From an uncultured Gemmatimonadota bacterium (GTDB lineage: Bacteria; JAAXHH01), in the NCBI GenBank assembly GCA_951812955.1, contig OX638340.1, forward strand, positions 1,120,001 to 1,184,000: 64,000 bases of DNA, given 5' to 3'. The translations under genes and the position numbers were made by a program. Position 1 is the first letter of the stretch, and the number at the start of each line of letters is the position of its first letter. Positions 8,637-64,000 of the stretch are shown piece after piece. The notes beneath the pieces were generated by a model, which saw only the letters and a program-made list of their open reading frames with translations, did not search any database and had not been told where the DNA came from.

Positions 8637-8671
8637 CAGGACCTCTCCGCTCGACGGTACAGTCTCTGCCG

Positions 8672-8761: not shown

Positions 8762-8786
8762 CGACAGAATTCATGGACCAGTAGGC

Positions 8787-9491
8787 TCACGACTCCGGAT
8801 CGACGATCGATTTGTCCTGGGGATGATAGTCGATCGCTCGTCGGCCGTGGTCCAGGTCGTACATCCGCCCGGTACTGTCGGACACGCCGAATACGACCTC
8901 GAATCGAATGCCGGGGTGGATGACCGCCCGTTCGAACACCCGGACCGCGTCGCCGTGACTCAGGTGATGGGGATGTCCCGGCAGGTCCCGCTGTTTCTGG
9001 AAATTGCCTATGCGCACGCACACGACCTCCATGTCGGACCGCACCGCGTACATGTAACCCAGGCTTTCCCCGAAAACCTTGCTGATGGAATAGTAGCTTT
9101 CCGGCCTCGGAGTCATGTCGATCGTGCGGAAGACGTCCTGCGGATACGGCGCCAGGAGGCCCGCGCGGCTCGCGAAAGCAACCCGGCGCACACCGTTGCG
9201 GCTCGCCGCTTCGAAAAGCGTGTAGGTACCGATGAAGTTGGCATGCAGGATTTCGTCCCACGACGCGCCGCCCGATGGGTTGCCGGCCAGGTGGATCACT
9301 GCGTCCATGCCTTCCGTGGCCTGCATGACCGCGTCCATGTCGGTGATGTCGCCCACGACTTCGTCTTCCAGTCCCGTGGTCGGCACCCGGTCGAAACCGC
9401 GGAGGGGATATCTATCCTTAAGTCCGTTAACGATGATCGAGCCGATGACGCCGGCCGATCCGGTGACGAGTATACGAGGTGTTTCGTTCAT
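8787..9491 (-). CDS. NAD-dependent epimerase/dehydratase family protein (short, 234 aa)
   Basis: N-terminal ILVTGSAGVIGS Rossmann motif and a YxxSK-like region (YYSISK). Start overlaps the stop of the upstream enolase gene (9488-9491). Confidence 0.75.
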   Translation of the reverse strand: MNETPRILVTGSAGVIGSIIVNGLKDRYPLRGFDRVPTTGLEDEVVGDITDMDAVMQATEGMDAVIHLAGNPSGGASWDEILHANFIGTYTLFEAASRNGVRRVAFASRAGLLAPYPQDVFRTIDMTPRPESYYSISKVFGESLGYMYAVRSDMEVVCVRIGNFQKQRDLPGHPHHLSHGDAVRVFERAVIHPGIRFEVVFGVSDSTGRMYDLDHGRRAIDYHPQDKSIVDPES

Positions 9492-45763: not shown

Positions 45764-48700
45764 TCAGCGGCCGGAGCCGTGCAGGCGCATGGCTTCTCTG
45801 AAACCCTCCTGAGAGACCCACCGCGTATTGTAGGTGTCCCGGTATTTCTGATGATCAACACTGTTCGGGTAATGGGCTTCGAGACCGTAAGGGTATCGGT
45901 CCATGCCGCGGAAGGGCAGGGGTTCGATCGTCGCCGCTGTCGCCGTGTTCAGGTCGCCTTCCTTGAGCCACCCATCGGTATGCAGAACGAAGTCCCTTTT
46001 CCAGCCCGGCGGTGGTTCGGGAAGGTCATTCGCTTCGAAGGTCACTGCGATTTCCTCTCCCGAACTGTAGACGACGTAACGGCTGTCCGATTTCCGCAAC
46101 AGGGCCGTGACATCACCGTACCGCGTCCTGTATCCCTCGAACGGCAGCCACTGCGGTTCGGCGCTCAGCGTCTGGTAGTCTCTGACGAAAGGACCGAGGG
46201 GCGCCGTCCGGTATTCCCGTGAGTAGCCGCGGTAGTGAAGATCGGCGGACAACGGTTGCAACCGGGTGATCGTTCTTTCGACCCGTTCCGGCTCGTCCAC
46301 GGTGAAAAAGGCCTCGCTCCAGTACAACTCCAGGTTGGTGGTGAGCCTGACGCGGTAGTCATCGGCGGGGAAATGGCCCGTCAGATCGACGAATATGGTC
46401 TTGTGTTCCCCCGAAGGAAAACCGGTGTATGGAATAACGGTACGCCATTGCCCTGCGCGGTCCGGCGTTTCCAGGTACGGCGGTATCACGGCGGTGTTAT
46501 TTCGCTGGGACAGGGCCAGGTTGGAGCTGGGCTCCACGGGCATGATCCAGCCGCAAAGGTACAGGTGGATCCGTTCGGCCCCGCTCAGATCTCCCAAATC
46601 CAGCGTGATCGAATGCGTCTCGGGAACGCCCTGGAATTCCCCGAGTTCGAAGTCACCCACGTACAGGCTGTCCCGTGCCGCGAGACGGGGCAGGATGTCG
46701 TTTCCATTGTGGTCTCGGGCGGCCAAGGGCGGGCGCGGGTCGGTCACGGTGTGGATCTCCAGTCCCGGATAGGGCGGCGGGAGGTACTTTTCATCTACGT
46801 AGATGTCTGTCTCCGCCGGGTGATCGACGACCAGCAATTCCATTTTATCCATGTACACCGCGTCCCATAACTCTTCTACGACACGGACTTCGAACTTTCC
46901 GTCCCGCTCCCGCAGTTGGTCACCCCGGATCTTCACGTAGTCGTTGGCCGCATCCGGATAGGCCGGTGCGCCGGTTTCCGTCAGGGCGCCGATTGCACTG
47001 CGTGTCATCAAGTGCGTGACGAACTCGTACCGCGCGCCGTTCCAAGTGTACAGCGACGGACAGGAGCCCTTAAGCCGCTGGGGTTCTACGATCAGCATGC
47101 GGGACTCCGGATCGATCCGGTTCTGGGGTACGCCGTTGCTCCAGATGACCCGGATAACGTCCGCCTTTTCGCGGCTGCCGAGACCTGCGTGGGAAATGGG
47201 CCCGTCGACCAGCAATGCCTGATAATGTGCGCCGGCGTTGACTTCGATGGTGGATCCAATGCCGTAGAAATTGTTCTTCCCGCTTCCTTCCAACGCCGCG
47301 GCGAGCCGTATGTTGAGCCACCCGTTCGCATTGCCGCCGTCATTGCGGAGCGCGATGATCCGGCCTTCGGACAGCAGCACGAGATCGAGATCGCCGTCGC
47401 CGTCCAGGTCGCTCTTTTCTACGGCTTCGACGTTGCCGGGCAGTTCCGGCAACAAGGCCGCCTGTTCCTCGAACCGGCCGTTCCCCAGGTTTCTGACCAG
47501 CCGGAGTCCGGAGCGTTCCGGGACCGACGTCCCGGCAAGGACCAGGTCGATGAACCCGTCGTTGTCGAAGTCGACAGGCCGAACAACGGCGGGATCAAGG
47601 CCTTCGCAGGCTCCGCCCAGTATCGCGGGTGTGTCCTGCCCGGCGAACCGTACGCCGCCTTCATTCCAGAACAACCTGCATCCATCGATTCCGGATCCCG
47701 CCATGAACAGATCCAGCGCGCCGTCGTTGTTGAAATCGGCGGCCGCGACCATATGCGCCTTGCCCCACCCGATGTCGCCGAACCGGTCCGTCCAGTCCAA
47801 CCACCTGCCCTGCCGTACGTTTCGGTAGAGCCGGTGCGATTCATCTTCAAACAGCGCGACCACGTCCACGGCTCCGTCCCGGTCGAAGTCTCCCCAGGCG
47901 AGCGCCTGACCGGCCGAAGGGAGAAAATCGCCTTCTGCCGCCCCGGCGGGAACGCCGCCTGCCGCCTCTTCGAAACCCGTGGAGGCCGTGGCTTCTTCAA
48001 ACAGTCCGTCCTCCGTATGACGGTAGAACCGGAGCGTCCTCATGTCGGACACCAGGATGTCCAGGTCGCCGTCGTGGTCGAAATCCACTCGCGCAACGGA
48101 TACCGGTGAAGTCGATCCGGTCCATTCAAAGGACTGCGCGAGGACGTAGGTTCCGTCTCCTGCATTATGAAACACCCGCGACTGCCCCGATCCGGCGGCG
48201 AACAGGTCGGCGTCGCCGTCGTTGTCGAAGTCGCCCGTTGCCAGCCTGAAGTCGCCCGTTGCCGGCCCGATATCCGCATCCTCCCCTCCCCTGGCCCAGG
48301 GGATCGAAACCGATTCCCAACCTTCTACTCGGTTGCGCAGCACGACCAGCGCACCTGTACCCGCCAGCACCAGATCCGGGCGGCCGTCCCCGTCCACGTC
48401 CGGCAGCGCCAGGTCTGTCCACGTCCCCGGCGCTTGAAGCGATGCCCCGATCAACGCGTCACCCGCGTCCACGAACCGCATGTCGACGAGGGAGTCCGCG
48501 TCCATGACGGCGAGGCCGGGCGGTGCCGAACGGAAATTGTAGAGCGGTGGCGACTGCTGCGTTGGATCTCCCAGTCGATCCCGAGACCGGCGGTAGGACG
48601 GATCCACGACGAGCAGGTTGCCCAGGATCCCCGCGTTGAATTCGGCTTCGTCAGCGTCCCTACGTTTCAGCGCGTCAAGTGTCCTGTCGAGCCAGGTCCG

Positions 48701-49330
48701 TACATCGTCCGAAAGGGGGACGAGCAACGAGGCCATCCGATCATACCCTTCGACGGCCTCGACGATCCTGCCCATACGGACCAGGGTCTGGTTCAGCTCG
48801 ACGAGTAAGGCCAGGTTGTCCGGTTCGTACGCGAGCATCGCCCGCAACTCGTCCAGTGCATCTTCATCCCGGTGGGCCGGTCCCCGCTGCCTTCTCATTT
48901 CAGTTAGATACTTGTACCTGAGCACCACGTTGGACTCGTTGTGTCCGACCGCGTGCGCAAGCATGTCAAGGGCGCGTTCGCGGTCTCCCCTCGCAGCCGC
49001 GATATCGGACCGGATGGAAAGGACTTCCCCATCCTGCGGGGCGAGATCCGAGGCCCGGTCTATGGCCGCTTCGGCGTTCTCTAAATCCTGCAGTTTCAGC
49101 AGCGCAATGGCCATGTTCGCGTGACCGAGGGGTTCTCGGGGCACCAGCCGGACCAGCGTCTGGAAGGAACCTGCCGCGCCTTCCGGATCATTCCGGTAAA
49201 GATAGGCCAGGCCGGTGTTCTTCTCGGACAGGGCTTCCACCCATACGTCGCGGGAAGGGGATGTATCACCGCATCCCGCGAGCAGGAAAGCGGCCAGTGA
49301 GAACCCGAAAATGGCGGTTGATGTCCGCAT
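45764..49330 (-). CDS. CRTAC1-family lipoprotein: N-terminal TPR region, FG-GAP/VCBS integrin-alpha-like beta-propeller repeats, C-terminal ASPIC/UnbV domain
   Basis: Internal ATG at 49330 with a GAGGGA RBS. Lipobox LAGCG. Many DxDxDGxxD Ca-binding FG-GAP repeats (DVDGDGRPDLVL, DFDNDGDADLF, DFDHDGDLDILV, DFNNDGALDLF, DLDGDGDLDLVLL). C-terminal UnbV-like region. Confidence 0.7.
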   Translation of the reverse strand: MRTSTAIFGFSLAAFLLAGCGDTSPSRDVWVEALSEKNTGLAYLYRNDPEGAAGSFQTLVRLVPREPLGHANMAIALLKLQDLENAEAAIDRASDLAPQDGEVLSIRSDIAAARGDRERALDMLAHAVGHNESNVVLRYKYLTEMRRQRGPAHRDEDALDELRAMLAYEPDNLALLVELNQTLVRMGRIVEAVEGYDRMASLLVPLSDDVRTWLDRTLDALKRRDADEAEFNAGILGNLLVVDPSYRRSRDRLGDPTQQSPPLYNFRSAPPGLAVMDADSLVDMRFVDAGDALIGASLQAPGTWTDLALPDVDGDGRPDLVLAGTGALVVLRNRVEGWESVSIPWARGGEDADIGPATGDFRLATGDFDNDGDADLFAAGSGQSRVFHNAGDGTYVLAQSFEWTGSTSPVSVARVDFDHDGDLDILVSDMRTLRFYRHTEDGLFEEATASTGFEEAAGGVPAGAAEGDFLPSAGQALAWGDFDRDGAVDVVALFEDESHRLYRNVRQGRWLDWTDRFGDIGWGKAHMVAAADFNNDGALDLFMAGSGIDGCRLFWNEGGVRFAGQDTPAILGGACEGLDPAVVRPVDFDNDGFIDLVLAGTSVPERSGLRLVRNLGNGRFEEQAALLPELPGNVEAVEKSDLDGDGDLDLVLLSEGRIIALRNDGGNANGWLNIRLAAALEGSGKNNFYGIGSTIEVNAGAHYQALLVDGPISHAGLGSREKADVIRVIWSNGVPQNRIDPESRMLIVEPQRLKGSCPSLYTWNGARYEFVTHLMTRSAIGALTETGAPAYPDAANDYVKIRGDQLRERDGKFEVRVVEELWDAVYMDKMELLVVDHPAETDIYVDEKYLPPPYPGLEIHTVTDPRPPLAARDHNGNDILPRLAARDSLYVGDFELGEFQGVPETHSITLDLGDLSGAERIHLYLCGWIMPVEPSSNLALSQRNNTAVIPPYLETPDRAGQWRTVIPYTGFPSGEHKTIFVDLTGHFPADDYRVRLTTNLELYWSEAFFTVDEPERVERTITRLQPLSADLHYRGYSREYRTAPLGPFVRDYQTLSAEPQWLPFEGYRTRYGDVTALLRKSDSRYVVYSSGEEIAVTFEANDLPEPPPGWKRDFVLHTDGWLKEGDLNTATAATIEPLPFRGMDRYPYGLEAHYPNSVDHQKYRDTYNTRWVSQEGFREAMRLHGSGR

Positions 49331-49355
49331 CTTGCGTCCCTCTGATCTCAAAGGA

Positions 49356-50102
49356 TCAAAACCGGTTGATGACCATCAGTTCGCTGCCGCCGCCACGCGC
49401 CACGCGCTTCACGGCTATGGCGATCCTGTTTTCCCTGTCAAGGGCGTTCCAGTACGTCCCCATGACCTCTTCCGCTCCGCCTCGCAAGGGCATGACCAGG
49501 GGATCGCCCGTAAACCCCGGCAACGGATCGCCGTCGCCCATGTAGGTCGTCAGGCACAGTCCCAGTCCTGCCGGAGGTGGCGTCGGAGCGTAGGTCGCGC
49601 GGTCGGTGTGGGCGGGATCGACGGGATTTGCTCTGAGCACGCTCAAGGAAACGGCGGGCGTCCCGGTCAGGTCCAGCATGCCGCTGATACGGGGCGTGTA
49701 GTTCGGCGCGTCCGGCTCCCGTTCCCTCGTGGCCAGGGCGGCGTCGAAGGTGCCGCCCCTGGTCAATGCATCTCGGATCGTCAGAGACTGGTCGCCGTTG
49801 GCGACGATATAAAGACCCGGCAGCTCGAGCATGGCCGGATAGATGATCAGATCGGGATTGTCCAGCCTGGATGGATCGGCCGGCATGGTCCGAAGTTCGG
49901 CCCCGTCGACGATGAACCGACGGTTACGGCTGCGCTCGCTCCGGCCCATGATCCAGTAGACTACGAGCCAGGCATCGTCTTCGGCCGTACGGCCGATGAT
50001 CAGGCCCCGCCCAGGGTAGCGGTTACCGTCGATATGCCGAGAAAAGTTCTGATCCGGGCTCAGCCTGGCGTGCATGGGGCGTTCGTTAACCGGTCCTGTC
50101 AT
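49356..50102 (-). CDS. PurO-family protein (archaeal-type IMP cyclohydrolase homolog, NTN-hydrolase fold)
   Basis: YPGRGLIIGRT....VVYWIMGRSERSRNRRF, NPDLIIYPAM, YIVANGDQSLTIRDAL, NYTPRISGML. These align with the remembered M. jannaschii PurO regions (YLGRILAVGRN...VAYRVSSRSFPNR, NPYIAYNCIRI, AVVSNGSHTDTIADKV, NTPRIAAAI). ATGA start/stop overlap with the upstream ATPase. Confidence 0.55.
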   Translation of the reverse strand: MTGPVNERPMHARLSPDQNFSRHIDGNRYPGRGLIIGRTAEDDAWLVVYWIMGRSERSRNRRFIVDGAELRTMPADPSRLDNPDLIIYPAMLELPGLYIVANGDQSLTIRDALTRGGTFDAALATREREPDAPNYTPRISGMLDLTGTPAVSLSVLRANPVDPAHTDRATYAPTPPPAGLGLCLTTYMGDGDPLPGFTGDPLVMPLRGGAEEVMGTYWNALDRENRIAIAVKRVARGGGSELMVINRF

Positions 50103-51253
50103 TTGAAAAGGCTCAATTGATCGGGGCTGATGTCGAGGGTTCTCTCCGAAGGTGCCCGGTCCGGTGCGATATCGCGTTCCAGGAGCAACAAGGCGTCCCT
50201 CACGTCTTCAGCCATCTCCGCATCCGAACCTTCGTGGACGGGTTTCAACAGCAGGACTTCCTCCCGTTCGATACCGGGGTCGGATAGCAGGGCCGCGCTG
50301 TGCGTGCTGATCAACACCTGCCTGCCGGCGTTCCGCTGCATGCGGAGAATCAATACGGCGAGTCGGTTGACGATGCCCGAATGGAGACAGAGCTCGGGTT
50401 CCTCCAGCAACAGCAGTGAATCCCCTTCGAGGAGTGCCCACAACATGCCGATAAGGCGCAGCGTTCCGTCGGAAAACTGGTCTTCCCGCTGTATACCCGC
50501 CCGAGGCCGCCAGTGGGCGTATAGCGCCTGGAGATGGGGACGTCCGGTCTCCCGGTCTCGTACGAATTCGAGTTGTTCGAGCCGAGGCACGGCCAACTTG
50601 AGCACCTCCTCGATCCGGGACAGGCGGGCCTTGCGGGTCCGGTCATGCTCCCGTGCGATTCTGTCCAGGAAATCCTGGCCGTATGGATCGCCTTCGAGTG
50701 TTTGACCACCGATCAGATCCGTGTGGCGTAGAAGCGACGGTACCAGGTGATGGTAGGTGATGGCTTGAAAGAACCGGGCTATGTCCCGGAAATCACGGTT
50801 GGCGGTGATCTGTTCGAGGTAGGTCTGGGTAAGCCGCACGATGTCTTCCCGGTCGTCCTCGTTCGGCCTTTCGAGAATGACGGCCTCGTCCCTGATCACC
50901 CGTTCGAGCGTGATCAGCGTATGCCGGTTCCCCCGGGCCTGCTGCTTGAGCCCGAGTTCGTAGCGCCAGGTCTCATGCCCGTCTGCCGGATCGGAAAATC
51001 GGACCTCGATGGCGATATCGGGATCCCTGCGCGCGGCGAGATTCCGGATCTTGGTCATTCCGCCCCGGTCCGCGACCGCCTTCTGCAGTCCGCCGCCCTC
51101 GATCTTGGCGATATCCCGGAGGAACCGGAATACGTCCATCAGGTTGGACTTCCCGGACGCGTTGGGTCCGACGACGAACTGTCTTTCTCTCAGATCGGCG
51201 TCGATCCGCGGGAAATTTCGCCAGTTTCTGACTTTAATGTGACTCACGTACAT
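50099..51253 (-). CDS. ABC-type ATPase of the AAA_21/AAA_15 (RecF/SMC/OLD-N-terminal-like) family
   Basis: ATG at 51253 with a GGAG RBS; the track TTG at 51268 is rejected. Walker A VVGPNASGKSNLMD, signature/Q-loop region, Walker B/D-loop DSLLLLEEPELCLH, H-loop ISTHS. Confidence 0.7.
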   Translation of the reverse strand: MYVSHIKVRNWRNFPRIDADLRERQFVVGPNASGKSNLMDVFRFLRDIAKIEGGGLQKAVADRGGMTKIRNLAARRDPDIAIEVRFSDPADGHETWRYELGLKQQARGNRHTLITLERVIRDEAVILERPNEDDREDIVRLTQTYLEQITANRDFRDIARFFQAITYHHLVPSLLRHTDLIGGQTLEGDPYGQDFLDRIAREHDRTRKARLSRIEEVLKLAVPRLEQLEFVRDRETGRPHLQALYAHWRPRAGIQREDQFSDGTLRLIGMLWALLEGDSLLLLEEPELCLHSGIVNRLAVLILRMQRNAGRQVLISTHSAALLSDPGIEREEVLLLKPVHEGSDAEMAEDVRDALLLLERDIAPDRAPSERTLDISPDQLSLFK

Positions 51254-51277
51254 GTGCCGCTCCGGCAATCCGGTGTA

Positions 51278-55057: not shown

Positions 55058-57418
55058 TTACGCAAGATCGGGACCGGCCAGTCGGTAACCGACCCGAGGC
55101 TCGTTAGAGATGTACGTCGGGCTTCCCGCATCATCACCCAGTTTGGAGCGGAGTTTCTTCACGAAAGCATGCACAACCCGGTTGTCTTCGGAACTTCCGG
55201 ACCGCCATACGTTGCGCAACAAATAGTCGTAAGTCACGACGCGGCCGGCGTTGGTCGCAAGCACGCGTAGTAAATCGTATTCGGTTGCGGTCAGTTTCAA
55301 AGGTTCGTCCGCCAGGGTCACCCGTCGTTGCTCGAAGTCGATGACGAGATCAATCACCCGGTAGGGCTCGGGTGGACCGGCATGCCTGCGAAGCGCCGAC
55401 TGGATTCTGGCCACCAGTTCCGTAGGCGAATACGGCTTGACCACATAATCGGCTGCTCCGATCTCCAGAGCTTTGGCAATTGTCTCGTCTCTGCCATACG
55501 CGGACAGGAAGATAACCGGCTGATCAGCCATGGCCGGCACGCTTTGCATCAGTTCGATACCGTCCGCATCCGGGAGCAGCAAATCCAGTAGTACCAGATC
55601 CGGTTGACGTGATTTAATCAGACCGGGTACGTCATTGGGATTGCCGGTCACCAGCGCCTCGAAACTCGCGTCCTCGAGTATACCCCGTATCTGTTCCAAC
55701 ACCTGTGGGTCGTCATCCACCACAAGGACCAGCGGCTTCTGCCGATTTCCCGTGTCCGGGAGTCTTTGCCTCATGAAGGAGGGCAATTCGATCATGGCCG
55801 GCGCTTCATCCGCCACAGGTATCGTAAATGTAAAACGTGTGCCTAGACCGTTACCTTCGCTCTCGACCCAGATACGGCCGCCATGCGCCTCGACAAGTCC
55901 CTTGCAGATGGCCAGTCCGAGGCCCTCCCCAACCCCGCGTCCGCGATCTTCCCGTCCGCTTCGGGCAAACTTGCTAAAAATGTGCGGCAGACGCTCTGCG
56001 GGAATCCCTCGCCCTTCATCGACTACCGAAACCGCTACGAACAACCCCTCGCGTTGCGCAAGTACCTGTATGACTGACGATTCTGGCGCGTGGCGGGTAG
56101 CGTTGGACAACAGGTTGATCAGGACCTGAACTATGCGCTGCCGGTCCACCCGCACCCGAGGCAGATCAGTAGGCAGGTCAATACTGATCTGGATACGGCT
56201 CTCACTACTGAGAAACATATTCCGAGCCTGGTCCACAATGGCAGCCAGATCCGAGTACTCGGGGGATACCGACAGCGATCCCGTCTCGATATGAGCCGCG
56301 TCCAGCAGGTCGCTGATCAACTGTCTCATGTGATCGGCCTGGTCGTTGATTATGCGGAAAAGCTGCCGGGTCTCGGCCGGGTCCAGCACCGACGGGGTCT
56401 CTAGCACGGTGGCGGCACAGCCCTTTACAGAAGTCAAGGGAGCCCTGAGCTCGTGACTCACCAAGCTTAAAAACTCGGCCCGCATTCTTTCAAGTTCTTC
56501 TATCGGCGTCATATCCTGTAAGGTAACAACCAAGGACTCGACTTCTTCCTGCGGTGAACGTATAGGCGTTGCGTTGACCAGTATCGTGACCTTCCGGCCG
56601 TCCGGAACCTCAAGTACGATCTCTTCGGCGCGAACCGGTGTGGCCTCGTTCAACGCCTCAACCAATGCGGACTTCTCCAGGGCAATCGCACGCCCGTCGG
56701 TTCGCCGCGCACTCATCACGTCCAACAAATCCTCGGCGGTGTTTCCCGGTGTCATGAGATTGCCGACAATGCGTCGCGTCTCCTGGTTAAGGGATACCAA
56801 CTTGCCACTTTGGGCGTCAATTACCACTACACCAACCGGAGACGTGTCTATCAGGGCTTCCAGGTCGGCCCTGACCCGTCGCTCATCGCCGTGCCTGCGG
56901 GCGTTTGCGATCGCCGCCCCGGCCTGCGAAGCGAACAGCGACAGCATCCCTTCATCCTCACCCGTAAACCCCTGATCGGACACTTTTCCAACGAGACTGA
57001 ATATGCCAACATGCACGCCTTGATGCCGCATGGGCATGCCCAGGTAACAACCAGCCAGTACAGGGTCCGCCGGGAACCCTAACGAGGCAAGGTGAGTCGC
57101 TAGTTCCTTGAGCCTTAGTGGACGTTGGACCTGTCGAAAAAACTCCCACAGATCGTACCCAAAAGGTAGATCTGTCAGCCGCCTGTATTCTTCGGGGCTC
57201 ACGCCATATGTGACAAAATCCTGCAGGCTGCCCGTTGCATCCATTGTACAGATTGCGCCGTATTCCGCATTGGTCAACAAGCATGCGTTTTCCACGACCT
57301 CGTGCAAGACGGTTTTGATATCAAGGCTTTCGCTGATACGCACACTTGCCTGACTTAGACCTAAGAATCGCTCCTTGAGCGATTGTATCTCCGCTTGCAA
57401 CTCTTCGATTTTGGACAT
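55058..57418 (-). CDS. Hybrid sensor histidine kinase fused to a complete OmpR-family response regulator (GAF - PAS-like - HisKA - HATPase_c - REC - winged-helix trans_reg_C)
   Basis: H-box SHELRAPLTSV, N/G boxes (LLSNATRHA, DEGRGIP, GLGLAICKGLVEAHGG), REC (LVVDDD...LLDLLLPDADG...VKP), C-terminal OmpR wing (LTATEYDLLRVLA....RVGYRL). Confidence 0.85.
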   Translation of the reverse strand: MSKIEELQAEIQSLKERFLGLSQASVRISESLDIKTVLHEVVENACLLTNAEYGAICTMDATGSLQDFVTYGVSPEEYRRLTDLPFGYDLWEFFRQVQRPLRLKELATHLASLGFPADPVLAGCYLGMPMRHQGVHVGIFSLVGKVSDQGFTGEDEGMLSLFASQAGAAIANARRHGDERRVRADLEALIDTSPVGVVVIDAQSGKLVSLNQETRRIVGNLMTPGNTAEDLLDVMSARRTDGRAIALEKSALVEALNEATPVRAEEIVLEVPDGRKVTILVNATPIRSPQEEVESLVVTLQDMTPIEELERMRAEFLSLVSHELRAPLTSVKGCAATVLETPSVLDPAETRQLFRIINDQADHMRQLISDLLDAAHIETGSLSVSPEYSDLAAIVDQARNMFLSSESRIQISIDLPTDLPRVRVDRQRIVQVLINLLSNATRHAPESSVIQVLAQREGLFVAVSVVDEGRGIPAERLPHIFSKFARSGREDRGRGVGEGLGLAICKGLVEAHGGRIWVESEGNGLGTRFTFTIPVADEAPAMIELPSFMRQRLPDTGNRQKPLVLVVDDDPQVLEQIRGILEDASFEALVTGNPNDVPGLIKSRQPDLVLLDLLLPDADGIELMQSVPAMADQPVIFLSAYGRDETIAKALEIGAADYVVKPYSPTELVARIQSALRRHAGPPEPYRVIDLVIDFEQRRVTLADEPLKLTATEYDLLRVLATNAGRVVTYDYLLRNVWRSGSSEDNRVVHAFVKKLRSKLGDDAGSPTYISNEPRVGYRLAGPDLA

Positions 57419-57688
57419 GTTTCCCCTCAGGGTTTTTGCAACTACGGACTATCAGTCAGATTGGTCGATTTCGCATGATTCAAATAGGCTGGGTTGACCG
57501 GGATCGTGTCACTTAAAAACACCTATTCATGAATGTTCAGCGTAAAATCACAATCATTAACCAAAATATCATTACCATGTCAGAAAAACCAGGAATAAAT
57601 GCCGTGTAATACACATTTTGGTCAGTTATACTATTGACAGTTTTCCGCCCTCCCTTGAGATCGACCCGATTTTGTTGGTGAATTAAGC

Positions 57689-57994
57689 ATGCGAAAGGAT
57701 CCCGCATTGCTGTACGCCATAGTCTTAATGAGTGATGATAACCACACCCTGACAGACTTGGATCGCATTGTCAATGCTTCCAACGTCGTACCTGCTGAAG
57801 TTCCATTCCTGAAGTTCCCCCACGTACACTTCGTGATGTATGATGGGACCTCAAAAGCTCTAAGTACCCACCTTGGTCTGGCACGAAGGAAGATCCCGGC
57901 AATCGTGTTTGAGATAACCAGGAACAGCTATGCCGGCTATGGACCTGCTGTTTTCGATACCTGGATCAGAAAAAACTCGGAAGAGATTCGTTGA
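57689..57994 (+). CDS. Hypothetical protein (101 aa) in low-GC island
   Basis: Track ORF in an AT-richer region. No recognisable motif. Confidence 0.3.
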   Translation: MRKDPALLYAIVLMSDDNHTLTDLDRIVNASNVVPAEVPFLKFPHVHFVMYDGTSKALSTHLGLARRKIPAIVFEITRNSYAGYGPAVFDTWIRKNSEEIR

Positions 57995-58091
57995 GAACCC
58001 TGGTCAAGTGCTCTCACATTCACATGCGAGTTTTTGCCAGTACACGAATACGTTGCTGAAGCAGCAGTCAAACTTTCGCTAAGGTGAGAAC

Positions 58092-59147
58092 ATGAATCGT
58101 GTTCTAGTCGTGCATGCGCTGTCGTTGGTGATCGGTTGTGCGGGTGACCAGGGACCGATTGGCCCCGGGGGGGAACAAGGTCCATAGAGCCTTCAATGTT
58201 CAGAGGGACCGGTAGGGCCGCAGGGCACGCGGGGCGAGCAAGGGCCGCAGGGAATAGCCGGGCCGACCGACCCACAGGGCTCACAGGGTCCACAGGGGAC
58301 TGGCGCGCCGCTGAATTGGGCAGACGTGATCGAGGAGGGGAACCTCTACGACGCGGTCTATGTGGTCGGTGTCTAGACTGAGAGTTACTGGACCATTATC
58401 GGCACGGCTTTTGCAGCCTACTACGACGACAAGATGTGGACCAACGCCCACGTCGTAAAGCGTGCTATGGAGGAAGCGCAGAATAAGATTGGCGAAGTGC
58501 GAACATTCGTGGCGCGAGCAGGAGAGCGGTTTGTGGATGAAGGGCAAGGTCCGGGATTTATCTACTGGAACGGCGCTATCATCCACGAAGACTATGATGC
58601 TGAGCAGTATCCCCATGACAGCCCCGACGTCGCCCTGCTCCGCCTGGAGGAGAATGTTACTGGACCACTGCCCGAGCTCTTGCCGCGTGAATTCAGCCAG
58701 GACCTGCGCATAGGCCAGCCGCAGGGAATATTGGGATATCCAGGCGGGCTGGGACATTAAACCCTCGAGCTCGTATTGCTGACGTTCAAAGAAGGCACGC
58801 TGTCTGCGCTGCGGCCCTTCCTGAACGAGAGCTTTGACGGAACCAATACGGGGATGTTGCTGCACTACAATTTCCTTACAGAAGGCGGGACACGCGGGAG
58901 CCCCGTCTTCGATCACAACGGTTACATCGTAGGCATCAATTTCGCCGGTCTTGATAAAGAAATCGAGTTCGGAGAGGAACTCGTCACGATTGAAACGTCG
59001 CACCAATTCGGCATACACGTGGAGGCTCTTTGGCAAATGATCGACCAGGTTGGCGGAGCGCCGGCCGTCGCCGCGCGCGTTACGGTACCGGAAGGATCTT
59101 ACGAGCCATTTCCGGCCGGCTGGATTGGTGAGACTATCGCGCCCTAG
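58092..59147 (+). pseudogene. Collagen-like / trypsin-like (S1) serine protease lipoprotein gene interrupted by three in-frame stop codons (TAG 58185, TAG 58375, TAA 58758) with no frameshift
   Basis: A single frame-0 reading gives, in order: signal peptide plus lipobox (LVIGC); GDQGPIGPGGEQGP*...[31 protein letters not shown] (Gly-X-Y repeats); ...VYVVGV*TESYWTIIGTAFAAYYDDKMWTNAHVV (catalytic His region); DVALLRL (Asp); ...GH*TLEL...GGTRGSPVFD (Ser-region). Track ORFs 58434..58760 and 58776..59147 are in the same frame as the ATG at 58092. Confidence 0.55.
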
Positions 59148-59210
59148 GAATTACAATCCGGAATTGTCCCGAGTTTTTTCAACCAATTATCCACACGAAA
59201 GGAATGAACC

Positions 59211-59762
59211 ATGAGATCCGTCCTATTTATCGTTGCCATGCTGGTTTTCACAGCCTGCGAGGGCAAGGTAGGACCGGCTGGACCGGCTGGACCGGCTGGA
59301 TCAGCCGGTCCACAGGGTGTAAAGGGCGATACCGGGTCGCTGGGACCGAAGGGTGACAGTGGTGATCCTGGACCGGCAGGGCCGGCAGGGCCGGCAGGAC
59401 CGCAGGGGCCGGCAGGACCGCAGGGGCCGACAGGGCCGGCAGGACCGGAAGGCGGTGGTACCACGGAGCCGCCACCACCACCGCCGGAGCCGCCACCACC
59501 ACCGCCGCCACCGCCGCCACCGCCGCCACCGCCGGCCGGCGACGGAGCCTGCGTAGCCGGGTTGGTCGTGAATCCGGGTGAGAGTTGCGTTTACAATGGC
59601 TACGACTTTTCCGTTAGTTCCGAAGGCAGAGGGCGCATTGCCTTTTTCTCCGCGGGAAGCGGTATAGATGCAAGGGGTACCACGATCAACGGCGTACTTT
59701 GGAACTTCCATGCAACCCGAAACAGTGGCAGTAGCAGTTGGACCATTCATTCTGCTGATTGA
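59211..59762 (+). CDS. Lipoprotein with collagen-like Gly-X-Y repeats and a poly-proline ([22 protein letters not shown]) tract plus small C-terminal domain
   Basis: Signal peptide plus lipobox FTAC, about 25 GXY triplets, then a 24-residue Pro run encoded by a (CCG/CCA)n repeat. Confidence 0.65.
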
Positions 59763-60305
59763 ATGGTTTCACCAGGTACGCTTCATCTCAATGGTTTCCT
59801 CTTCATATGGTGTCAACCAAATCTGTGTGCGAAACACCGCTGTCGGTAACCTGGCTGGAACGGAGTAACAATCGTGGTCGGTGAATTGTATCGGTTAATA
59901 AGTTGCATTGCGGCTTTCTGGTTTTGGGCGGATCCTTACCGTGCAACAACGATAGCGGGGTCGAGTCGTTATCTGTTCGTGCGATGGTTCTGTTCGTCTT
60001 GACTCCCAGACCGGCGAAGGCAAGGGAAGCGGGAGTTCGCGCGACGAAGCCTTGTTGTCCGCTTTTCCGATTGTTTGTTCTAAACTCAGTATCGACAGCA
60101 AAACACTCAGTCGATGTGAACAGAACTGGATTTCGAGAACGCCAGACTTTCGGGAACGTGACCATTGTAATCCCTGCTGAGAAGATTGTCACATGCTTTG
60201 AGTCTTCTTGAGGATGAAGTTTATCAATGAACGAAATTCCAATGCAAATGGAGGTTGATAAGCTGTAGTGCACTCCAAAATGGGACAAGTAGTTAAGCTA
60301 CAGGT

Positions 60306-61263
60306 TTAAACAGGTGGTTTCATTTGCTCGAACTCGACCGAAGGCGTGTAGCTTAAGGCGGGGTGCAAGCGTTTACGATTGTAGAGCTTGTAGATGAAGT
60401 AACCGATGCGTGATCGGGCTTCTTCGAGGGATTCGTACTCGTAGAGATAGCCCTCCTCGTATTTGAGCGTCCTGATGAAGCGCTCTGCTTTGGCGTTGTC
60501 ATAGGGGTTATCGCGCCGGCTCATGCTGATTCTAATACCGGCCTTTTTGTGGGTTTCGACATAGGCTTTGGAGGCGTACTACACGTCCCGGTCGGAGTGA
60601 TGTACCAAGCCCTTTGGTACCGATCTGGATGCCAGGGCGCTGTCCAAGGCATGAAGGGCAAGACCTGCATCGAGGGTTCGATTCAAAGCCCAGCCGATGC
60701 ATTTTCTGCTGCAGGCGTCAAGGACCACGGCCAGATAGATCCATTCGCCGGCCAGGCGGATGTAGGTGATTTCGGTCCCCCAGAGTTGATTGACTCCGAT
60801 TGTGTTCAGTTCCGGAACCAATTGGCGTAGAAGGCACGATCAGGGTTCGAGTCGGTGGTCGTTACGAAGACCTTGAGTCGCAGGGCAATCCGGTTGTCTT
60901 CGTACATGAGGCGCAGGACGCGCTTATGGTTTCAACAGGTAGAAAAGGCGTCTGAGTGTCCTAGTCAAAGAACGGTAGCCTTAGGAAGACCAGGTAAGGG
61001 AGAGCTTGTGTATCATGTCCCGCAGTTCAAGGGCCGGATCCATACGGCCTCAGAGACCGAGGTAGTAGCTGGATCGACCGATCGAGAGCGTCCTGCGAAT
61101 CCGGGTGACCACGAGACCGTCTACTGAGGGCGTAATTGGTGGCGCCACCTGTGAATCCGCTTGGGATGAACCTAGTGTTCCGCGGCTGACTGAATGATAG
61201 ATTTACCCGAATCGGCTTCCTAAAGGACTTGGAGCTTGAACTCACGGGTGAACAGACGGCGTT
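60306..61263 (-). mobile_element. Degraded IS3-family insertion sequence (OrfA/OrfB transposase pseudogene with multiple in-frame stops)
   Basis: Minus-strand fragments read: OrfA start MTLKRRLFTREFKLQVL* (ATG complement 61261-63); ...IGRSSYYL; NHKRVLRLMYEDNRIALRLK; QLWGTEITYIRLAGEWIYLAVVLDACSRKCIGWAL...VHHSDRD (DDE/rve core); DNPYDNAKAERFIRTLKYE (C-terminus, stop at 60306). These are interrupted by several stops, and the ends/IRs are not delimited. Confidence 0.6.
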
Positions 61264-61388
61264 TCAGAGTCATGAAGCGCCTCCTCGATCGGTAGGAAGC
61301 TTAACTCTGTCTCCCAGTCAAGGGTGCGGTACGATTTAACGTAAACTGACAGATGAGCCTGCAACAATCAACAAGAGGCAAGGAAACC

Positions 61389-64000
61389 ATGCCCTTGATT
61401 TACATTCGTGCCATACCCGTGTTCATATGTCTTGTATTGTTCACTCTGACCACCTGCGGCAAGGACAGCCCCACCAGACCGAAGCCGCCAGATCCACCGC
61501 CGCCAGTAGTGCCCGTAGCCACCCGCATTGACATCACTCCGCCTTCTGCCACGTTGAACTCGGTTGGCCAGACTATTCAACTCAACGCAAGAGTCCTGGA
61601 TCAGAACAACGCGCCAATTAGTGGCGCAGCCGTGACATGGACCAGCAGCGACAACGGCGTGGCTACCGTCACCGTCCAGGGGTTGGTAACTGCGGTAAAG
61701 AACGGCACGGCACGGATCACAGCCCGATCAGGTAATATCTCTGCAAATGCGAATGTCACTGTGTTACAGACAGCCGGTAGTATCGTTATCGAATCGGCTA
61801 TGACGACGCTAACAGCCATCGGTCAGACCGTCCAGCTGACGGCGAATGTACTGGATCGTAATGACAAGCCGGTAGCCGGTGCTGTCGTGACCTGGACGAG
61901 CAGCGATGCGTCCGTAGCAACGGTCAACGAACAGGGGTTGGTGACGGCCGTCAAGAGTGGCGGCACACGGATCACGGCACGGTCAGGCAGCGCCTCAGCA
62001 GGCATCACTGTTACGGTAATGCAGTCGGTAGCAAGTATCGTGATAGAGCCTGAGATGGCGACGCTCATGTCGATCGGCGAGACCGTGCAACTCACCGCCA
62101 CCGTTCTAGATCAGAACCGGCAACCAGTAGATGATGCCGTCGTCACCTGGCAGAGCAGCGATGAGGAAGTGGCCACCGTAAGCGCTGCAGGACTCGTTAC
62201 CGCCATCGGCAACGGCATGGCAACTGTCACCGCCAGATCAGGCAACGCCTCGCAGACGGCAACCTTGACTGTGACGATCCTTGATACACGACGCGACCGA
62301 GAAGCCCTTGCCGCACTGTATCATAGTACGGATGGACCGAATTGGACCAACAACACGAACTGGCTGAGCGATGCGCCTCTAGACTCATGGCATGGCATAG
62401 GAACTACCACACTTGGAGAGGTTCAGTATCTGAATTTGGGGGAGAACAATCTCCACGGCATCATCCCACCTGAAATAGGCAAACTTCAAAAACTGACAGT
62501 ACTGGCGCTCTACGGCAATAGTTTGACCGGCAACATCCCGCCCGAAATCGGACAGTTACAGAACCTGACAGATCTTAATCTCGGCGACAACGAGTTGAGC
62601 GGCCCTATCCCCACTGAAATAGGGCAACTTCAAAAACTGACAGGTCTTACTCTCGCCGGCAACCAGTTGAGCGGTCCAATCCCCCCTAATATAGTGCAAT
62701 TGCTGGAACTAAAATTCCTGTGGCTCGGCGGCAACCAGTTGAGCGGTCCTATCCCCACTGAAATAGGGCAACTTCAAAAACTGACAACTCTATGGCTAGG
62801 CGCTAATCAACTGACCGGCAACATCCCGCCCGAAATCGGACAGTTGCGAAACCTTACTGACCTAAATCTTGATTTTAACCAGTTGTCTGGATCCATACCC
62901 CCCTTAATCGGACAACTACAGCATCTGAAATTCCTGCGGCTGAATGGCAACCAGTTGACTGGATCCATTCCGCCCGAAATCGGACAGCTTAGCATGCTTA
63001 GGTTCTTGAACATGGCCTTCAATCCCAATCTTTCGGGGCCATTACCGGTAACAATCACCTCTCTTTCCAACATGGAATCCCTGAGTTTGCACTACACTCA
63101 AGTATGTATTCCTCCTACCGCCCAATTCCAGTCATGGTTAGACGGGATAGAAAACATAAGAGGCGATATTTCTAGCTGTCCAGGGCCAGAGGGACCAGTG
63201 GAACCGGAAGAACCGGAAGAACCGGAAATGCCGCCTCCTGTCGGAGAGCGTCTGGACGTGAGGATTGTTTATTTTGTTCCTGCAAATCATACTGGATACC
63301 CGAACATAGATGCCAAGATAGATTCGTTGGTCAACATCGTCAAATTGACTTATGCGGAGATATTTGAATTTCATGGCTTCGGCGATAGAACCTTTCAGCA
63401 CGAGCAAAATGCGGATGGCACGGCCAGGGTATATCATGTGAAGGGCCAATACGATGGCGAATACTATTCCAGCGAAACATTTTTTAAGGTTATACATACC
63501 GAATTGGAACAGATATTCGATTTAGAATCGAATATTTACTGGGTCGTATTGGATGCTATCGATGCAACTGTAGATGGTTATTGCGGGCAAGGGTATGGTG
63601 ATCTTCCTGAGGGCGGCGCGTTTTTAATACCCGGACCAAACGACTACTGGTTGGAGGATCGCGGGTGGAGTTGTTTCAACCCATCAGTTGCATCCCACGA
63701 AATCGGACATTCCTTTGGTCTAACCCATGACCTGCTCAGAGACGAAGTGCGTGTCGAGTCCTCATATCAAGATGACTGGATGATTACTTCGTATTGTGCC
63801 GCCGAATGGATGTCGGTACATCCATTCTTCACCGGCGAACCAACCACGGGGAATGACAATGAGGGTGAAATAAGTCTAAGGTCGATTTCTGATGCTTCAT
63901 CCGAGACTATCCGCCTGGTTTTCGATGTGAGCGACCCCGATATGCTGCACCAGGCTCAACTTCTTGATAGAAACGGAGAAACGATAGCCTACCGTGGATT
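61389..64000 (+). CDS. Large lipoprotein: 3 x Big_2 (bacterial Ig-like) domains, about 10 plant-specific-type leucine-rich repeats, and a C-terminal metzincin-like zinc protease domain (partial, continues past window end)
   Basis: Manual translation from the ATG at 61389; not in the track because it is open to the window end. Lipobox LTTCG. Three ~85-aa repeats of TLxxxGQTVQLxAxVLDQNxxPVxxAxVTWxSSDxxVATV...GLVTAVxNGTAxITARSG. Then LRRs of the 24-residue plant-specific class (LxxLxxLxLxxNxLxGxIPxEIGQL). Then HEIGHSFGLTHD (HExxHxxGxxH/D). GC content and codon usage are visibly lower and more AT-rich than the rest of the window. Confidence 0.7.
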   Translation, partial: MPLIYIRAIPVFICLVLFTLTTCGKDSPTRPKPPDPPPPVVPVATRIDITPPSATLNSVGQTIQLNARVLDQNNAPISGAAVTWTSSDNGVATVTVQGLVTAVKNGTARITARSGNISANANVTVLQTAGSIVIESAMTTLTAIGQTVQLTANVLDRNDKPVAGAVVTWTSSDASVATVNEQGLVTAVKSGGTRITARSGSASAGITVTVMQSVASIVIEPEMATLMSIGETVQLTATVLDQNRQPVDDAVVTWQSSDEEVATVSAAGLVTAIGNGMATVTARSGNASQTATLTVTILDTRRDREALAALYHSTDGPNWTNNTNWLSDAPLDSWHGIGTTTLGEVQYLNLGENNLHGIIPPEIGKLQKLTVLALYGNSLTGNIPPEIGQLQNLTDLNLGDNELSGPIPTEIGQLQKLTGLTLAGNQLSGPIPPNIVQLLELKFLWLGGNQLSGPIPTEIGQLQKLTTLWLGANQLTGNIPPEIGQLRNLTDLNLDFNQLSGSIPPLIGQLQHLKFLRLNGNQLTGSIPPEIGQLSMLRFLNMAFNPNLSGPLPVTITSLSNMESLSLHYTQVCIPPTAQFQSWLDGIENIRGDISSCPGPEGPVEPEEPEEPEMPPPVGERLDVRIVYFVPANHTGYPNIDAKIDSLVNIVKLTYAEIFEFHGFGDRTFQHEQNADGTARVYHVKGQYDGEYYSSETFFKVIHTELEQIFDLESNIYWVVLDAIDATVDGYCGQGYGDLPEGGAFLIPGPNDYWLEDRGWSCFNPSVASHEIGHSFGLTHDLLRDEVRVESSYQDDWMITSYCAAEWMSVHPFFTGEPTTGNDNEGEISLRSISDASSETIRLVFDVSDPDMLHQAQLLDRNGETIAYRG

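What the first reader, a model, noticed from the sequence alone, without database searches (positions are those of the whole stretch)
61389..64000. Low-GC, IS-adjacent giant lipoprotein combining Big_2 x3, plant-specific-type LRRs (~10) and a metzincin (HExxHxxGxxH) protease domain
A domain fusion of adhesion-type Ig-like domains, 24-residue plant-specific LRRs (LxxLxxLxLxxNxLxGxIPxEIGQL, the class typical of plant receptor kinases, rare in bacteria) and a zinc endopeptidase domain. The gene's AT-rich codon usage contrasts with the roughly 62% GC host background, and it starts about 60 nt from an IS3 remnant, which suggests horizontal acquisition.

It could be a surface-anchored targeting protease (host/prey interaction, biofilm matrix or competitor surface-protein processing). 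The protein continues beyond the window.
Basis: seen in the sequence. Interest (0 to 1): 0.6.

Follow-up and report, generated by a model that had tools for sequence, protein, structure and literature searches.

The report
LRR-guided OgpA-like zinc protease lipoprotein
This is a real, intact gene from a sponge-associated bacterium that encodes a lipid-anchored zinc protease carrying a leucine-rich-repeat binding arm; its catalytic part belongs to the little-studied protease family of the Akkermansia O-glycoprotein proteases OgpA and Amuc_1438, so it is an interesting new variant rather than a new kind of system.

Summary
The described features are real. The ORF 61389-64000 encodes a lipoprotein signal, three Big_2 domains, a capped block of eight exact 24-residue plant-type LRRs plus a degenerate repeat, a Pro/Glu linker and a zinc protease with HEIGHSFGLTHD.

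Three refinements:
1. The protein is not giant. Orthologues end about 60 residues past the window, giving about 930 aa, with no C-terminal sorting signal.
3. The plant-type LRR module is not rare in bacteria. At least 4,210 relatives were found, sharing bacterial-style caps.

The host is a sponge-symbiont lineage (MutL 97% identical to an Aplysina aerophoba MAG). Low GC3, an adjacent IS3 remnant, three different genomic contexts and absence from close reference genomes support horizontal acquisition.

The most likely function is an envelope-anchored, LRR-targeted endopeptidase acting on host or neighbour (glyco)proteins. Glycan dependence is unproven.

The parts
60306..61273 (-). Decayed IS3-family element: an OrfA start (MTLKRRLFTREFKLQVL*) and OrfB integrase-core fragments, with in-frame stops and frameshifts
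   Evidence: Pfam rve E 1.8e-15 and rve_3 E 1.9e-10 on two separate ORF fragments. The three-frame translation shows stops, e.g. HHSDRDV*YAS.
61380..61384 (+). AAGGA Shine-Dalgarno-like site 4 nt upstream of the ATG at 61389
   Evidence: Read directly from the sequence.
61389..61457 (+). Signal peptide ending in the lipobox LTT-C23 (MPLIYIRAIPVFICLVLFTLTTC)
   Evidence: Translation. The orthologues have LAAC or VVSC followed by the same GKDSPT(K/R).
61458..61520 (+). Pro-rich tether (GKDSPTRPKPPDPPPPVVPVA)
   Evidence: Translation.
61521..62279 (+). Three Big_2 Ig-like domains (61521-61769, 61773-62024, 62028-62279)
   Evidence: Pfam PF02368, E 8.6e-32, three stretches. Boundaries.
62283..62420 (+). 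Cys-free LRR N-terminal cap (DREALAALYHSTDGPNWTNNTNWLSDAPLDSWHGI...)
   Evidence: The same cap is seen in bacterial relatives P0222-P0225. No PF08263 (plant LRRNT_2) hit at E<=1.
62421..62996 (+). Eight canonical 24-residue plant-specific-class LRRs (LxxLxLxxNxLxGxIPxEIGQLxx)
   Evidence: Regex positions at an exact 72-nt spacing. TRF period 72. Pfam LRR models. PDB best hits are FLS2, GSO1 and TDR.
62997..63179 (+). Degenerate last LRR(s) and C-terminal cap with a Cys pair (LSLHYTQVC...FQSWLDGIENIRGDISSC)
   Evidence: Translation. The C-cap motif is shared with bacterial relatives P0222 and P0224.
63180..63245 (+). Pro/Glu-rich interdomain linker (PGPEGPVEPEEPEEPEMPPPVG), including a 9-nt x3 repeat at 63201-63227
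   Evidence: Translation. TRF. pLDDT 58-59 for the first 20 residues of the model.
63246..63866 (+). Metzincin catalytic domain of the OgpA/Amuc_1438 type. Zinc motif H770-E771-x-x-H774-x-x-G777-x-x-H780-D781 at 63696-63731. Met-turn candidate M798 at 63780-63782.
63867..64000 (+). First strands of a C-terminal beta-sandwich domain, cut by the window end. About 60 more residues are expected.

Best explanation
The gene encodes an exported, lipid-anchored, modular zinc endopeptidase of a sponge-associated, Latescibacterota-like bacterium.

Architecture, shown here: a lipoprotein signal, a Pro-rich tether, three Big_2 Ig-like domains, a capped solenoid of about nine plant-class LRRs, a flexible Pro/Glu linker, and a metzincin catalytic domain with its beta-sandwich partner of the OgpA/Amuc_1438 type. 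The zinc site is complete (H770, E771, H774, H780, Met-turn M798).

Mechanism, inferred: the N-terminal lipid holds the protein on the cell envelope and the Big_2 domains act as a stalk. The LRR arm binds a protein or glycoprotein ligand and so delivers the tethered protease to its substrate. Glu771 and the zinc-bound water then hydrolyse the peptide bond as in other metzincins. The most likely targets are extracellular (glyco)proteins of the sponge matrix or the surfaces of neighbouring cells.

Origin: the gene is an accessory, horizontally mobile cassette. Its protease module belongs to a family whose named members are all from Poribacteria, another sponge-symbiont phylum. Its Big_2 + LRR module is a common bacterial cassette.
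For: Domains.

Catalytic competence:
- HExxHxxGxxH is present in 140 of 150 relatives.
- H, E, H, H are invariant in the family alignment.
- A Met lies 5-26 residues after the third His in 136 of 144 members.
- dN/dS is 0.26 over the protease against the orthologue.

Family placement:
- hmmsearch gives E 1.2e-13 to OgpA and 1.4e-13 to Amuc_1438, against 5e-5 for the best reprolysin.
- Foldseek gives E 1e-8.

LRR-protease coupling: at least 82 of the 150 best relatives carry LRRs. These are of a different class and on the other side of the protease, so the fusion arose more than once.

Export: orthologues have a canonical lipobox and the conserved CGKDSPT. Cysteines are conserved in the cap and the catalytic domain.

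Host and setting: MutL is 97% identical to MAG APA_bin_41 and 76-87% identical to 'Latescibacterota' MAGs. APA_bin MAGs are from Aplysina aerophoba (PMC11706023). The orthologue is on a contig named PetF_.... Sponge symbionts are enriched in LRR proteins that are laterally transferred (PMC8163846).

Mobility: GC3 is 0.55 and 0.58 against 0.71-0.83 in two genomes. There are three unrelated contexts. An IS3 remnant is adjacent. No close relative exists in the species-representative genomes.
Against: - No biochemical data exist for any member of this branch.
- Substrate, LRR ligand and localisation (outer surface or periplasmic face) are all inferred.
- The window's lipobox (LTTC) is non-canonical.
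- The 3' end of this copy is missing, so its integrity rests on the orthologues.
- The glycan-binding residues of OgpA and Amuc_1438 are not clearly conserved: the position equivalent to OgpA W199 and Amuc_1438 Y217 is Asn here. The family assignment therefore does not transfer specificity.
- The host assignment rests on one marker gene.
- A Poribacteria origin for the protease module is only suggested by the taxon names of three named hits.
Confidence: 0.7

Rival explanations
1. It is a strict O-glycopeptidase (a mucinase-like enzyme) like OgpA and Amuc_1438. It would cut only next to O-glycosylated Ser or Thr and be used to harvest or remodel sponge mesohyl glycoproteins.
For: The closest solved relatives by sequence profile and by fold are exactly these two enzymes, including the catalytic + beta-sandwich arrangement. 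In the HMM alignment, OgpA F166 aligns with the residue before the conserved CGxG, which is Tyr in the window's subclade ('DGYCGQG'). An aromatic residue follows the Met-turn (MITSY). The host guild (Latescibacteria, Poribacteria) is enriched in enzymes acting on sialylated and other glycoconjugates of sponge tissue (PMC8163846).
Against: Sequence identity is only 13-17%. The key aromatic before the zinc helix (OgpA W199, Amuc_1438 Y217) is replaced by Asn. The F166-equivalent varies across the family. OgpA and Amuc_1438 themselves differ in glycan specificity. No carbohydrate-binding module is present. LRRs usually bind proteins.
Confidence: 0.25
2. It is a general, glycan-independent extracellular endopeptidase of the reprolysin/ADAM type. 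It would be used for protein scavenging, or for cleaving specific host or competitor surface proteins chosen by the LRR arm.
Confidence: 0.4
3. The LRR block (or the whole gene) was captured from a eukaryote, such as a plant, an alga or the sponge host, and mimics eukaryotic receptors.
For: The LRRs are of the plant-specific class and their best solved-structure matches are plant receptor kinases. Sponge-symbiont LRR proteins are commonly described as 'eukaryotic-like' and thought to be acquired by HGT (PMC11706023).
Against: The nearest relatives are thousands of proteins, the best of which lie on Mb-scale prokaryote-sized contigs. The four I read share the same Cys-free N-cap and/or the LCxP...FQAWLDGIE C-cap, and two of them carry Big_2 domains. 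There is no plant LRRNT_2 (PF08263) hit in the window protein. Any eukaryotic origin would be ancient, not specific to this gene.
Confidence: 0.05
4. It is a decaying or non-functional gene in an IS-ridden junk island, or a pseudo-protease that serves only as an adhesin.
For: The neighbourhood holds an IS3 wreck and a trypsin-like gene split into two ORFs. The copy in the window is incomplete at its 3' end. Repeat numbers vary between alleles.
Against: The frame is open for 2.6 kb. All catalytic residues are intact and invariant in the family. dN/dS is 0.16-0.34 in every module against the orthologue. Complete orthologues exist in two other genomes.
Confidence: 0.05

Closest known systems
OgpA (Amuc_1119, 'OpeRATOR') and Amuc_1438 of Akkermansia muciniphila: metzincin-type O-glycopeptidases (PDB 6Z2D/6Z2O/6Z2P, 8DEK/8DF2)
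   Same: - Detectable profile homology (E 1e-13).
- No prodomain.
- Only marginal coverage by Pfam PF12044, as the Amuc_1438 authors also noted.
- Those authors already proposed a very large, sequence-diverse family mainly in environmental bacteria.
   Different: - Only 13-17% identity.
- The glycan-pocket aromatic before the zinc helix is replaced by Asn.
- No NPCBM/CBM module.
- Instead a lipoprotein anchor, a Big_2 stalk and an LRR arm lie N-terminal to the protease.
- The host is a marine sponge symbiont, not a gut mucin degrader.
- Activity is untested.
The uncharacterised LRR-metzincin family abundant in 'Candidatus Poribacteria' MAGs (annotated as hypothetical, 'LRR domain-containing' or 'M12 family metallo-peptidase')
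   Same: - The same catalytic + beta-sandwich module at 33-50% identity, with the HE[LI]GHxFGLxHD motif.
- A shared insertion, IPxPN...ERGWSCFN, with the closest subclade.
- Frequent fusion to LRRs.
- Neighbourhoods rich in transposases and repeat proteins.
   Different: There the protease is usually N-terminal (109 of 150), and the LRRs are 22-residue bacterial-type repeats placed C-terminal to it. Here, and only in the two orthologues P0001 and P0002, the LRRs are 24-residue plant-class repeats placed N-terminal, together with Big_2 domains and a lipobox.
Bacterial Big_2 + plant-class LRR surface proteins (e.g. P0223 and P0224 found here; Leptospira LIC LRR proteins; Tannerella BspA-type LRR + Big_2 adhesins, the last two from my own knowledge)
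   Same: Same capped LRR module and Big_2 combination. P0224 also has an N-terminal signal ending in a lipobox-like SCG. NCBIfam gives partial LRR hits to Leptospira LIC_11051 and to Xanthomonas XopAE, XopAC and XopL.
   Different: Those proteins lack a protease domain. All the NCBIfam hits are far below their cut-offs and cover only the LRRs.
LRR-enzyme fusions such as the IpaH/SspH NEL E3 ligases and XopL (own knowledge: the LRR acts as the substrate-recognition arm of a catalytic domain)
   Same: The same design logic: an LRR solenoid tethered to an enzymatic domain by a linker.
   Different: Different enzyme chemistry, a different LRR class (except XopL), and type III secreted effectors rather than lipoproteins. 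This is an analogy only.

Membership tests
Metzincin clan (MA(M)) | Extended zinc motif HExxHxxGxxH/D | tested here: met
   HEIGHSFGLTHD lies at residues 770-781. H, E, H, H are invariant in the 34-sequence alignment and G777 is nearly invariant. The motif is in 140 of 150 relatives.
Metzincin clan (MA(M)) | Conserved Met-turn downstream of the third His | tested here: met
   M798 lies 18 residues after H780. A Met is found 5-26 residues after the third His in 136 of 144 members, in two modes (+9 'MSYG', +18/19 'M[IV]TS[FY]'). OgpA has M231, 16 residues after H215.
Metzincin clan (MA(M)) | Metzincin fold of the catalytic domain | tested here: met
   [not shown]
OgpA/Amuc_1438 O-glycopeptidase family | Sequence homology of the catalytic domain | tested here: met
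   Profile hmmsearch gives E 1.2e-13 (OgpA) and 1.4e-13 (Amuc_1438), covering profile positions 5-158.
OgpA/Amuc_1438 O-glycopeptidase family | Two-domain architecture: catalytic domain packed against a C-terminal beta-sandwich | tested here: met
   [not shown]
OgpA/Amuc_1438 O-glycopeptidase family | Glycan-binding pocket residues (OgpA Y116, F166, K198, W199, N235, Y236; Amuc_1438 D166, Y171, Y217) | tested here: inconclusive
   In the HMM alignment the W199/Y217 position (-6 from the first His) is Asn. The F166-equivalent is Tyr in the window's subclade but variable in the family. An aromatic residue follows the Met-turn at +4. No structural superposition was possible.
OgpA/Amuc_1438 O-glycopeptidase family | Cleavage strictly N-terminal to O-glycosylated Ser or Thr | not testable with these tools
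   This needs enzyme assays.
Pfam PF12044 (Metallopep) | Score at or above the gathering threshold (27 bits) | tested here: not met
   The window protein scores 13.1 bits. Relatives P0004 (32.0) and P0005 (28.3) pass, and most profile hits carry a precomputed PF12044 hit.
Pfam M12B reprolysin-like, astacin and matrixin families | Score at or above the gathering threshold | tested here: not met
   Reprolysin_4 18.8 against 22; Reprolysin_3 19.4 against 22.4; Reprolysin_5 17.2 against 27; Astacin 13.7 against 22.5; Peptidase_M10 14.7 against 24. All hits are confined to about 20-30 residues at the zinc motif.
Plant-specific (PS) LRR class | Tandem 24-residue repeats with LxxLxLxxNxLxGxIPxxLGxL | tested here: met
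   Eight repeats at an exact 24-residue spacing match the pattern. The best PDB matches are plant LRR-RK ectodomains.
Plant LRR receptor ectodomains | Cys-pair N-terminal cap (Pfam LRRNT_2, PF08263) | tested here: not met
   There is no PF08263 hit at E<=1. The cap has no Cys and matches the cap of bacterial relatives.
Big_2 (PF02368) | Score above the gathering threshold | tested here: met
   109.4 bits against 22.8, in three stretches.
Bacterial lipoprotein | Signal peptide with lipobox [LVI][ASTVI][GAS]C | tested here: inconclusive
   The window has L-T-T-C23, and Thr at -1 is non-canonical. The orthologue L001 has the canonical L-A-A-C and P0002 has V-V-S-C. All are followed by the conserved GKDSPT(K/R). 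No dedicated predictor was available.
C-terminal sorting signals (T9SS CTD and similar) | A recognisable C-terminal sorting domain | tested here: not met
   The complete orthologues end right after the beta-sandwich (...RPFKPQH...QVKPHH) and have no PF18962 or similar hit.
IS3 family insertion sequence (the neighbour) | rve integrase core and an intact OrfA/OrfB | tested here: not met
   rve, rve_3 and rve_2 hits are present, but the frame is broken by stops and shifts and the element is only about 1 kb. It is a remnant, not an active IS.

The most novel reading that the evidence does not exclude
Sponge symbionts from unrelated phyla (Poribacteria and Latescibacterota-like bacteria) share, by lateral transfer, a dedicated family of LRR-guided OgpA-like proteases. 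These would recognise and cut specific O-glycosylated or matrix proteins of the sponge host, such as mesohyl glycoproteins or host receptors. The LRR arm has been swapped at least once between LRR classes and positions, which would retune target choice. That would make this a symbiosis factor family: a 'programmable' host-protein protease, not just a feeding enzyme.
Probability: 0.15. Interest if true: 0.65.

Novelty: new variant of a known kind. Interest (0 to 1): 0.4.

Why it matters
Only two enzymes of the OgpA/Amuc_1438 protease lineage have been characterised, both from a gut mucin degrader, and one of them is a commercial glycoproteomics tool. This gene shows that the lineage has a very large unexplored branch (1,210 clusters at 50% identity) whose named members all come from sponge symbionts.

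In that branch the protease has been fused to LRR binding arms more than once, in different ways. If the LRR arm dictates the target, these proteins could explain how symbionts process host matrix or surface (glyco)proteins. They could also provide proteases with new, possibly glycan-dependent, specificities.

The case also corrects an appealing misreading. Plant-class LRRs in bacteria are a common bacterial module with their own caps. They are not evidence of plant-to-bacterium transfer.

Tried and rejected
1. The word-indexed protein search with the C-terminal 290 aa found nothing. A peptide-pattern scan of 185,579 species genomes found no relative. The exhaustive HMMER scan then found 1,210 relatives, including a 94%-identical one. 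So the first negative reflects a limit of the index, not orphan status.
2. I tried to recover the window's own contig through exact neighbouring proteins. It is not on record. The metagenome scan returned only L047, which is the same organism as L001 (99.98% identity), so the window's own 3' end was not obtained.
3. I considered and dropped a generic reprolysin/M12B assignment. All Pfam hits are sub-threshold and confined to the zinc motif, and the fold match is far weaker than to OgpA/Amuc_1438.
4. I tested whether GC content identifies a Poribacteria donor. A homologue's locus has GC 0.54 in a mixed-GC region, which is not decisive. The donor claim is kept only as a suggestion.
5. I tested whether a top LRR-hit genome (L045) belongs to the window's lineage. 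There is no meaningful DNA similarity.
6. I looked for shared island flanks between the window and L001 by blastn and tblastx. None were found.
7. No tRNA gene lies near the island.
8. Literature searches for an LRR-metalloprotease family in Poribacteria or sponge symbionts found no description.
9. The weak Pfam hits to Dioxygenase_C, CarboxypepD_reg and MG2 fall inside the Big_2 domains. I treated them as generic Ig-like similarity.
Full report
**1. Observation**

Frame 1 from 61389 is open to the end of the window (870 codons). An AAGGA site lies 4 nt upstream of the ATG.

Pfam confirms three Big_2 domains (E 8.6e-32) and strong LRR models. The LRR block holds eight repeats at an exact 24-residue (72-nt) period that fit the plant-specific consensus, followed by a degenerate repeat. 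Its best solved-structure matches are plant receptor-kinase ectodomains.

The zinc motif HEIGHSFGLTHD lies at residues 770-781. Every Pfam metzincin model hits only this motif, and all are below threshold. The metzincin call therefore needed independent support.

Gene GC is 0.518 (GC3 0.55) against GC3 0.71-0.83 for host genes. GC falls along the gene: 0.58 in Big_2, 0.50 in the LRRs and 0.47 in the protease.

An IS3 wreck lies on the minus strand at about 60306-61273. It has rve fragments, stops and frameshifts.

**2. Size and ends**

An exhaustive HMMER scan with residues 601-870 found 1,210 cluster representatives at E<=1e-3, of which 850 are at E<=1e-10.

Two share the window's architecture:
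- P0002 is complete at 735 aa, with 1 Big_2 and about 8 LRRs.
- P0001 is 94% identical over the protease.

The gene caller truncated P0001. In locus L001 the ORF starts at 6852 and gives a 1,190-aa protein with the canonical lipobox LAAC|GKDSPTKP, 4 Big_2 domains and about 17 LRRs.

Both orthologues end about 60 residues beyond the point where the window stops, directly after a beta-sandwich domain. Neither has a sorting domain. The window protein is therefore about 930 aa, not giant. Its unusual LTTC lipobox is backed by the conserved CGKDSPT context.

**3. What the protease is**

In the 150 best relatives, HExxHxxGxxH occurs in 140. In a 34-sequence alignment H770, E771, H774 and H780 are invariant, and G777 and D781 nearly so. 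A Met follows the third His within 5-26 residues in 136 of 144 members.

A profile of this alignment hits OgpA (6Z2D/6Z2O) and Amuc_1438 (8DEK/8DF2) at E about 1e-13. The best reprolysin scores 5e-5.

An AlphaFold model (pLDDT 85, pTM 0.80) gives the same order:
- Foldseek: E 1e-8 to OgpA and Amuc_1438.

The Amuc_1438 authors already predicted a very large, diverse family mostly in environmental bacteria, barely touched by PF12044. The window protein behaves exactly so: 13 bits against a 27-bit cut-off, while relatives pass.

Specificity cannot be transferred. The aromatic residue before the zinc helix that contacts GalNAc (OgpA W199, Amuc_1438 Y217) aligns with Asn here. Other pocket positions are only partly aromatic.

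**4. The LRR arm**

Within the protease family, at least 82 of the 150 best relatives carry LRRs. In 78 of them these are 22-residue bacterial-type repeats located C-terminal to an N-terminal protease. Only the window, P0001 and P0002 have plant-class LRRs on the N-terminal side. The protease has thus been joined to LRRs at least twice in different ways, which argues that the two modules work together.

The plant-class block itself is not exotic. It has at least 4,210 relatives at E<=1e-20, a figure limited by the candidate cap. The best are on Mb-scale prokaryote-sized contigs, and many carry Big_2 hits. The four I read share the Cys-free N-cap (DRDALxAxYHATxGPNWTNNTNWLS..P...W.GV) and/or the C-cap (LCxP....FQAWLDGIE...C) with the window. 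P0223 is a Big_2 + LRR protein without a protease. No plant LRRNT_2 cap is detected in the window protein.

**5. Host and mobility**

MutL from the window is 97% identical to MAG 'Gemmatimonadetes bacterium APA_bin_41', 95% to a 3.9-Mb MAG chromosome, and 76-87% to many 'Latescibacterota' MAGs. APA_bin MAGs derive from the sponge Aplysina aerophoba (PMC11706023). The orthologue's contig is named PetF_10000195. All named relatives of the protease are from 'Candidatus Poribacteria'.

Robbins et al. report three relevant points (PMC8163846):
- LRR and other repeat proteins are enriched in sponge MAGs.
- Glycoconjugate-degrading enzymes are concentrated in Poribacteria and Latescibacteria.
- These genes are laterally transferred between symbiont taxa.

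The evidence here fits that picture:
- The gene is GC3-poor in both genomes where flanks are known (0.55 and 0.58 against 0.71-0.83).
- It sits in three unrelated contexts: an IS3 remnant; GT2 and rhodanese genes; a PIN toxin gene.
- No flanking homology is shared.
- No close relative is present in the species-representative genomes, although near relatives of the host are there.

Against the orthologue the gene is a mosaic. dS is 0.09 in the protease, 0.54 in the LRRs and about 2 (saturated) in the Big_2 region. dN/dS is 0.16-0.34 throughout, so selection is purifying, with recombination and repeat-number change.

**6. Mechanism**

Shown: the domain order, an intact and conserved zinc site, an export signal, purifying selection, family placement, and recurrent LRR fusion.

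Inferred: lipid anchoring on the envelope, the Big_2 domains as a stalk, the LRR arm as a ligand-binding targeting device joined by a flexible Pro/Glu linker, and standard metzincin hydrolysis by Glu771 and a zinc-bound water.

The substrate is unknown. A general or LRR-selected protein substrate (about 0.4) and a strictly O-glycan-dependent one (about 0.25) are both open. Pseudogene or adhesin-only readings, and a recent eukaryotic origin of the LRRs, are unlikely (about 0.05 each).

**7. Novelty and verdict**

Its 'anchored targeting protease, horizontally acquired' reading is reasonable.

The corrections are: not giant; plant-class LRRs are a common bacterial module; the protease is an OgpA/Amuc_1438-type metzincin.

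The gene is a new architectural variant within a known but barely explored protease lineage, in an ecologically coherent setting. Searches of the held literature found no description of this LRR-metzincin family. Interest is moderate, at 0.4.

Noticed in passing
window 59211-59762 (+): A small lipoprotein-like ORF (signal ending FTAC) with a collagen triple-helix region (GXY repeats; Pfam Collagen E 2.6e-8), then a poly-Pro tract and a C-terminal globular part. It is another 'eukaryote-like' protein immediately upstream of the IS3 remnant.
   Followed up: partly
window 58434-59147 (+): A trypsin-like serine protease split into two ORFs (58434-58760 and 58776-59147; Trypsin_2, Trypsin and Peptidase_S46 hits). 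It is probably a frameshifted pseudogene. A 251-aa ORF with no Pfam hit overlaps it on the opposite strand.
   Followed up: partly
window about 57000-64000: The whole terminal stretch has lower GC (0.53) than window 1-55000 (0.61). It contains only unannotatable small ORFs, the broken trypsin-like gene, the collagen-like gene, the IS3 wreck and the LRR-protease gene. It looks like an accessory island whose far boundary lies beyond the window. No tRNA gene is nearby.
   Followed up: partly
window 55058-57418 (-): A single 786-aa polypeptide combines GAF, PAS, HisKA, HATPase_c, a receiver domain and an OmpR-type DNA-binding domain, so sensor kinase and response regulator are fused. Its GC3 (0.64) is also below the host norm.
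   Followed up: no
window 1159-3279 (-), 45764-49351 (-): Large repeat proteins: an NHL/teneurin-like beta-propeller of 706 aa and a TPR + FG-GAP protein of 1,195 aa. NHL and TPR are among the 'eukaryotic-like' repeat classes reported from sponge-symbiont genomes.
   Followed up: no
window 50099-51268 (-): An AAA_21/AAA_15 ATPase (AbiEii-like, SMC_N-like N-terminus), possibly part of a defence or toxin-antitoxin-like system.
   Followed up: no
L001 6852-10424 compared with window 61389-64000: There is a steep gradient of synonymous divergence along one gene: dS 0.09 in the protease, 0.54 in the LRRs and about 2 in the Big_2 region. Repeat copy numbers also differ (3 against 4 Big_2, about 9 against about 17 LRRs). 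This suggests recent recombinational exchange of the 3' half.
   Followed up: partly
L044 8001-10194 (5.46-Mb genome): A family member is split into two overlapping ORFs (metallopeptidase 8001-9356; LRR/Big_1/EF-hand 9346-10194). Three different transposase genes lie upstream, and multi-kb WD40-repeat genes lie on both sides.
   Followed up: no
L045 4783-7359: A top plant-class LRR relative (P0225, two capped LRR modules in tandem) sits directly downstream of an IS110 transposase, near other transposase genes and a HEPN gene. LRR cassettes seem generally associated with mobile DNA in these genomes.
   Followed up: no
window 63201-63227: A perfect 9-nt x3 tandem repeat (GAACCGGAA) encodes the PEEPEEPEE part of the interdomain linker. 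The orthologue linker is 3 residues shorter than the window's at this Pro/Glu tract.
   Followed up: no
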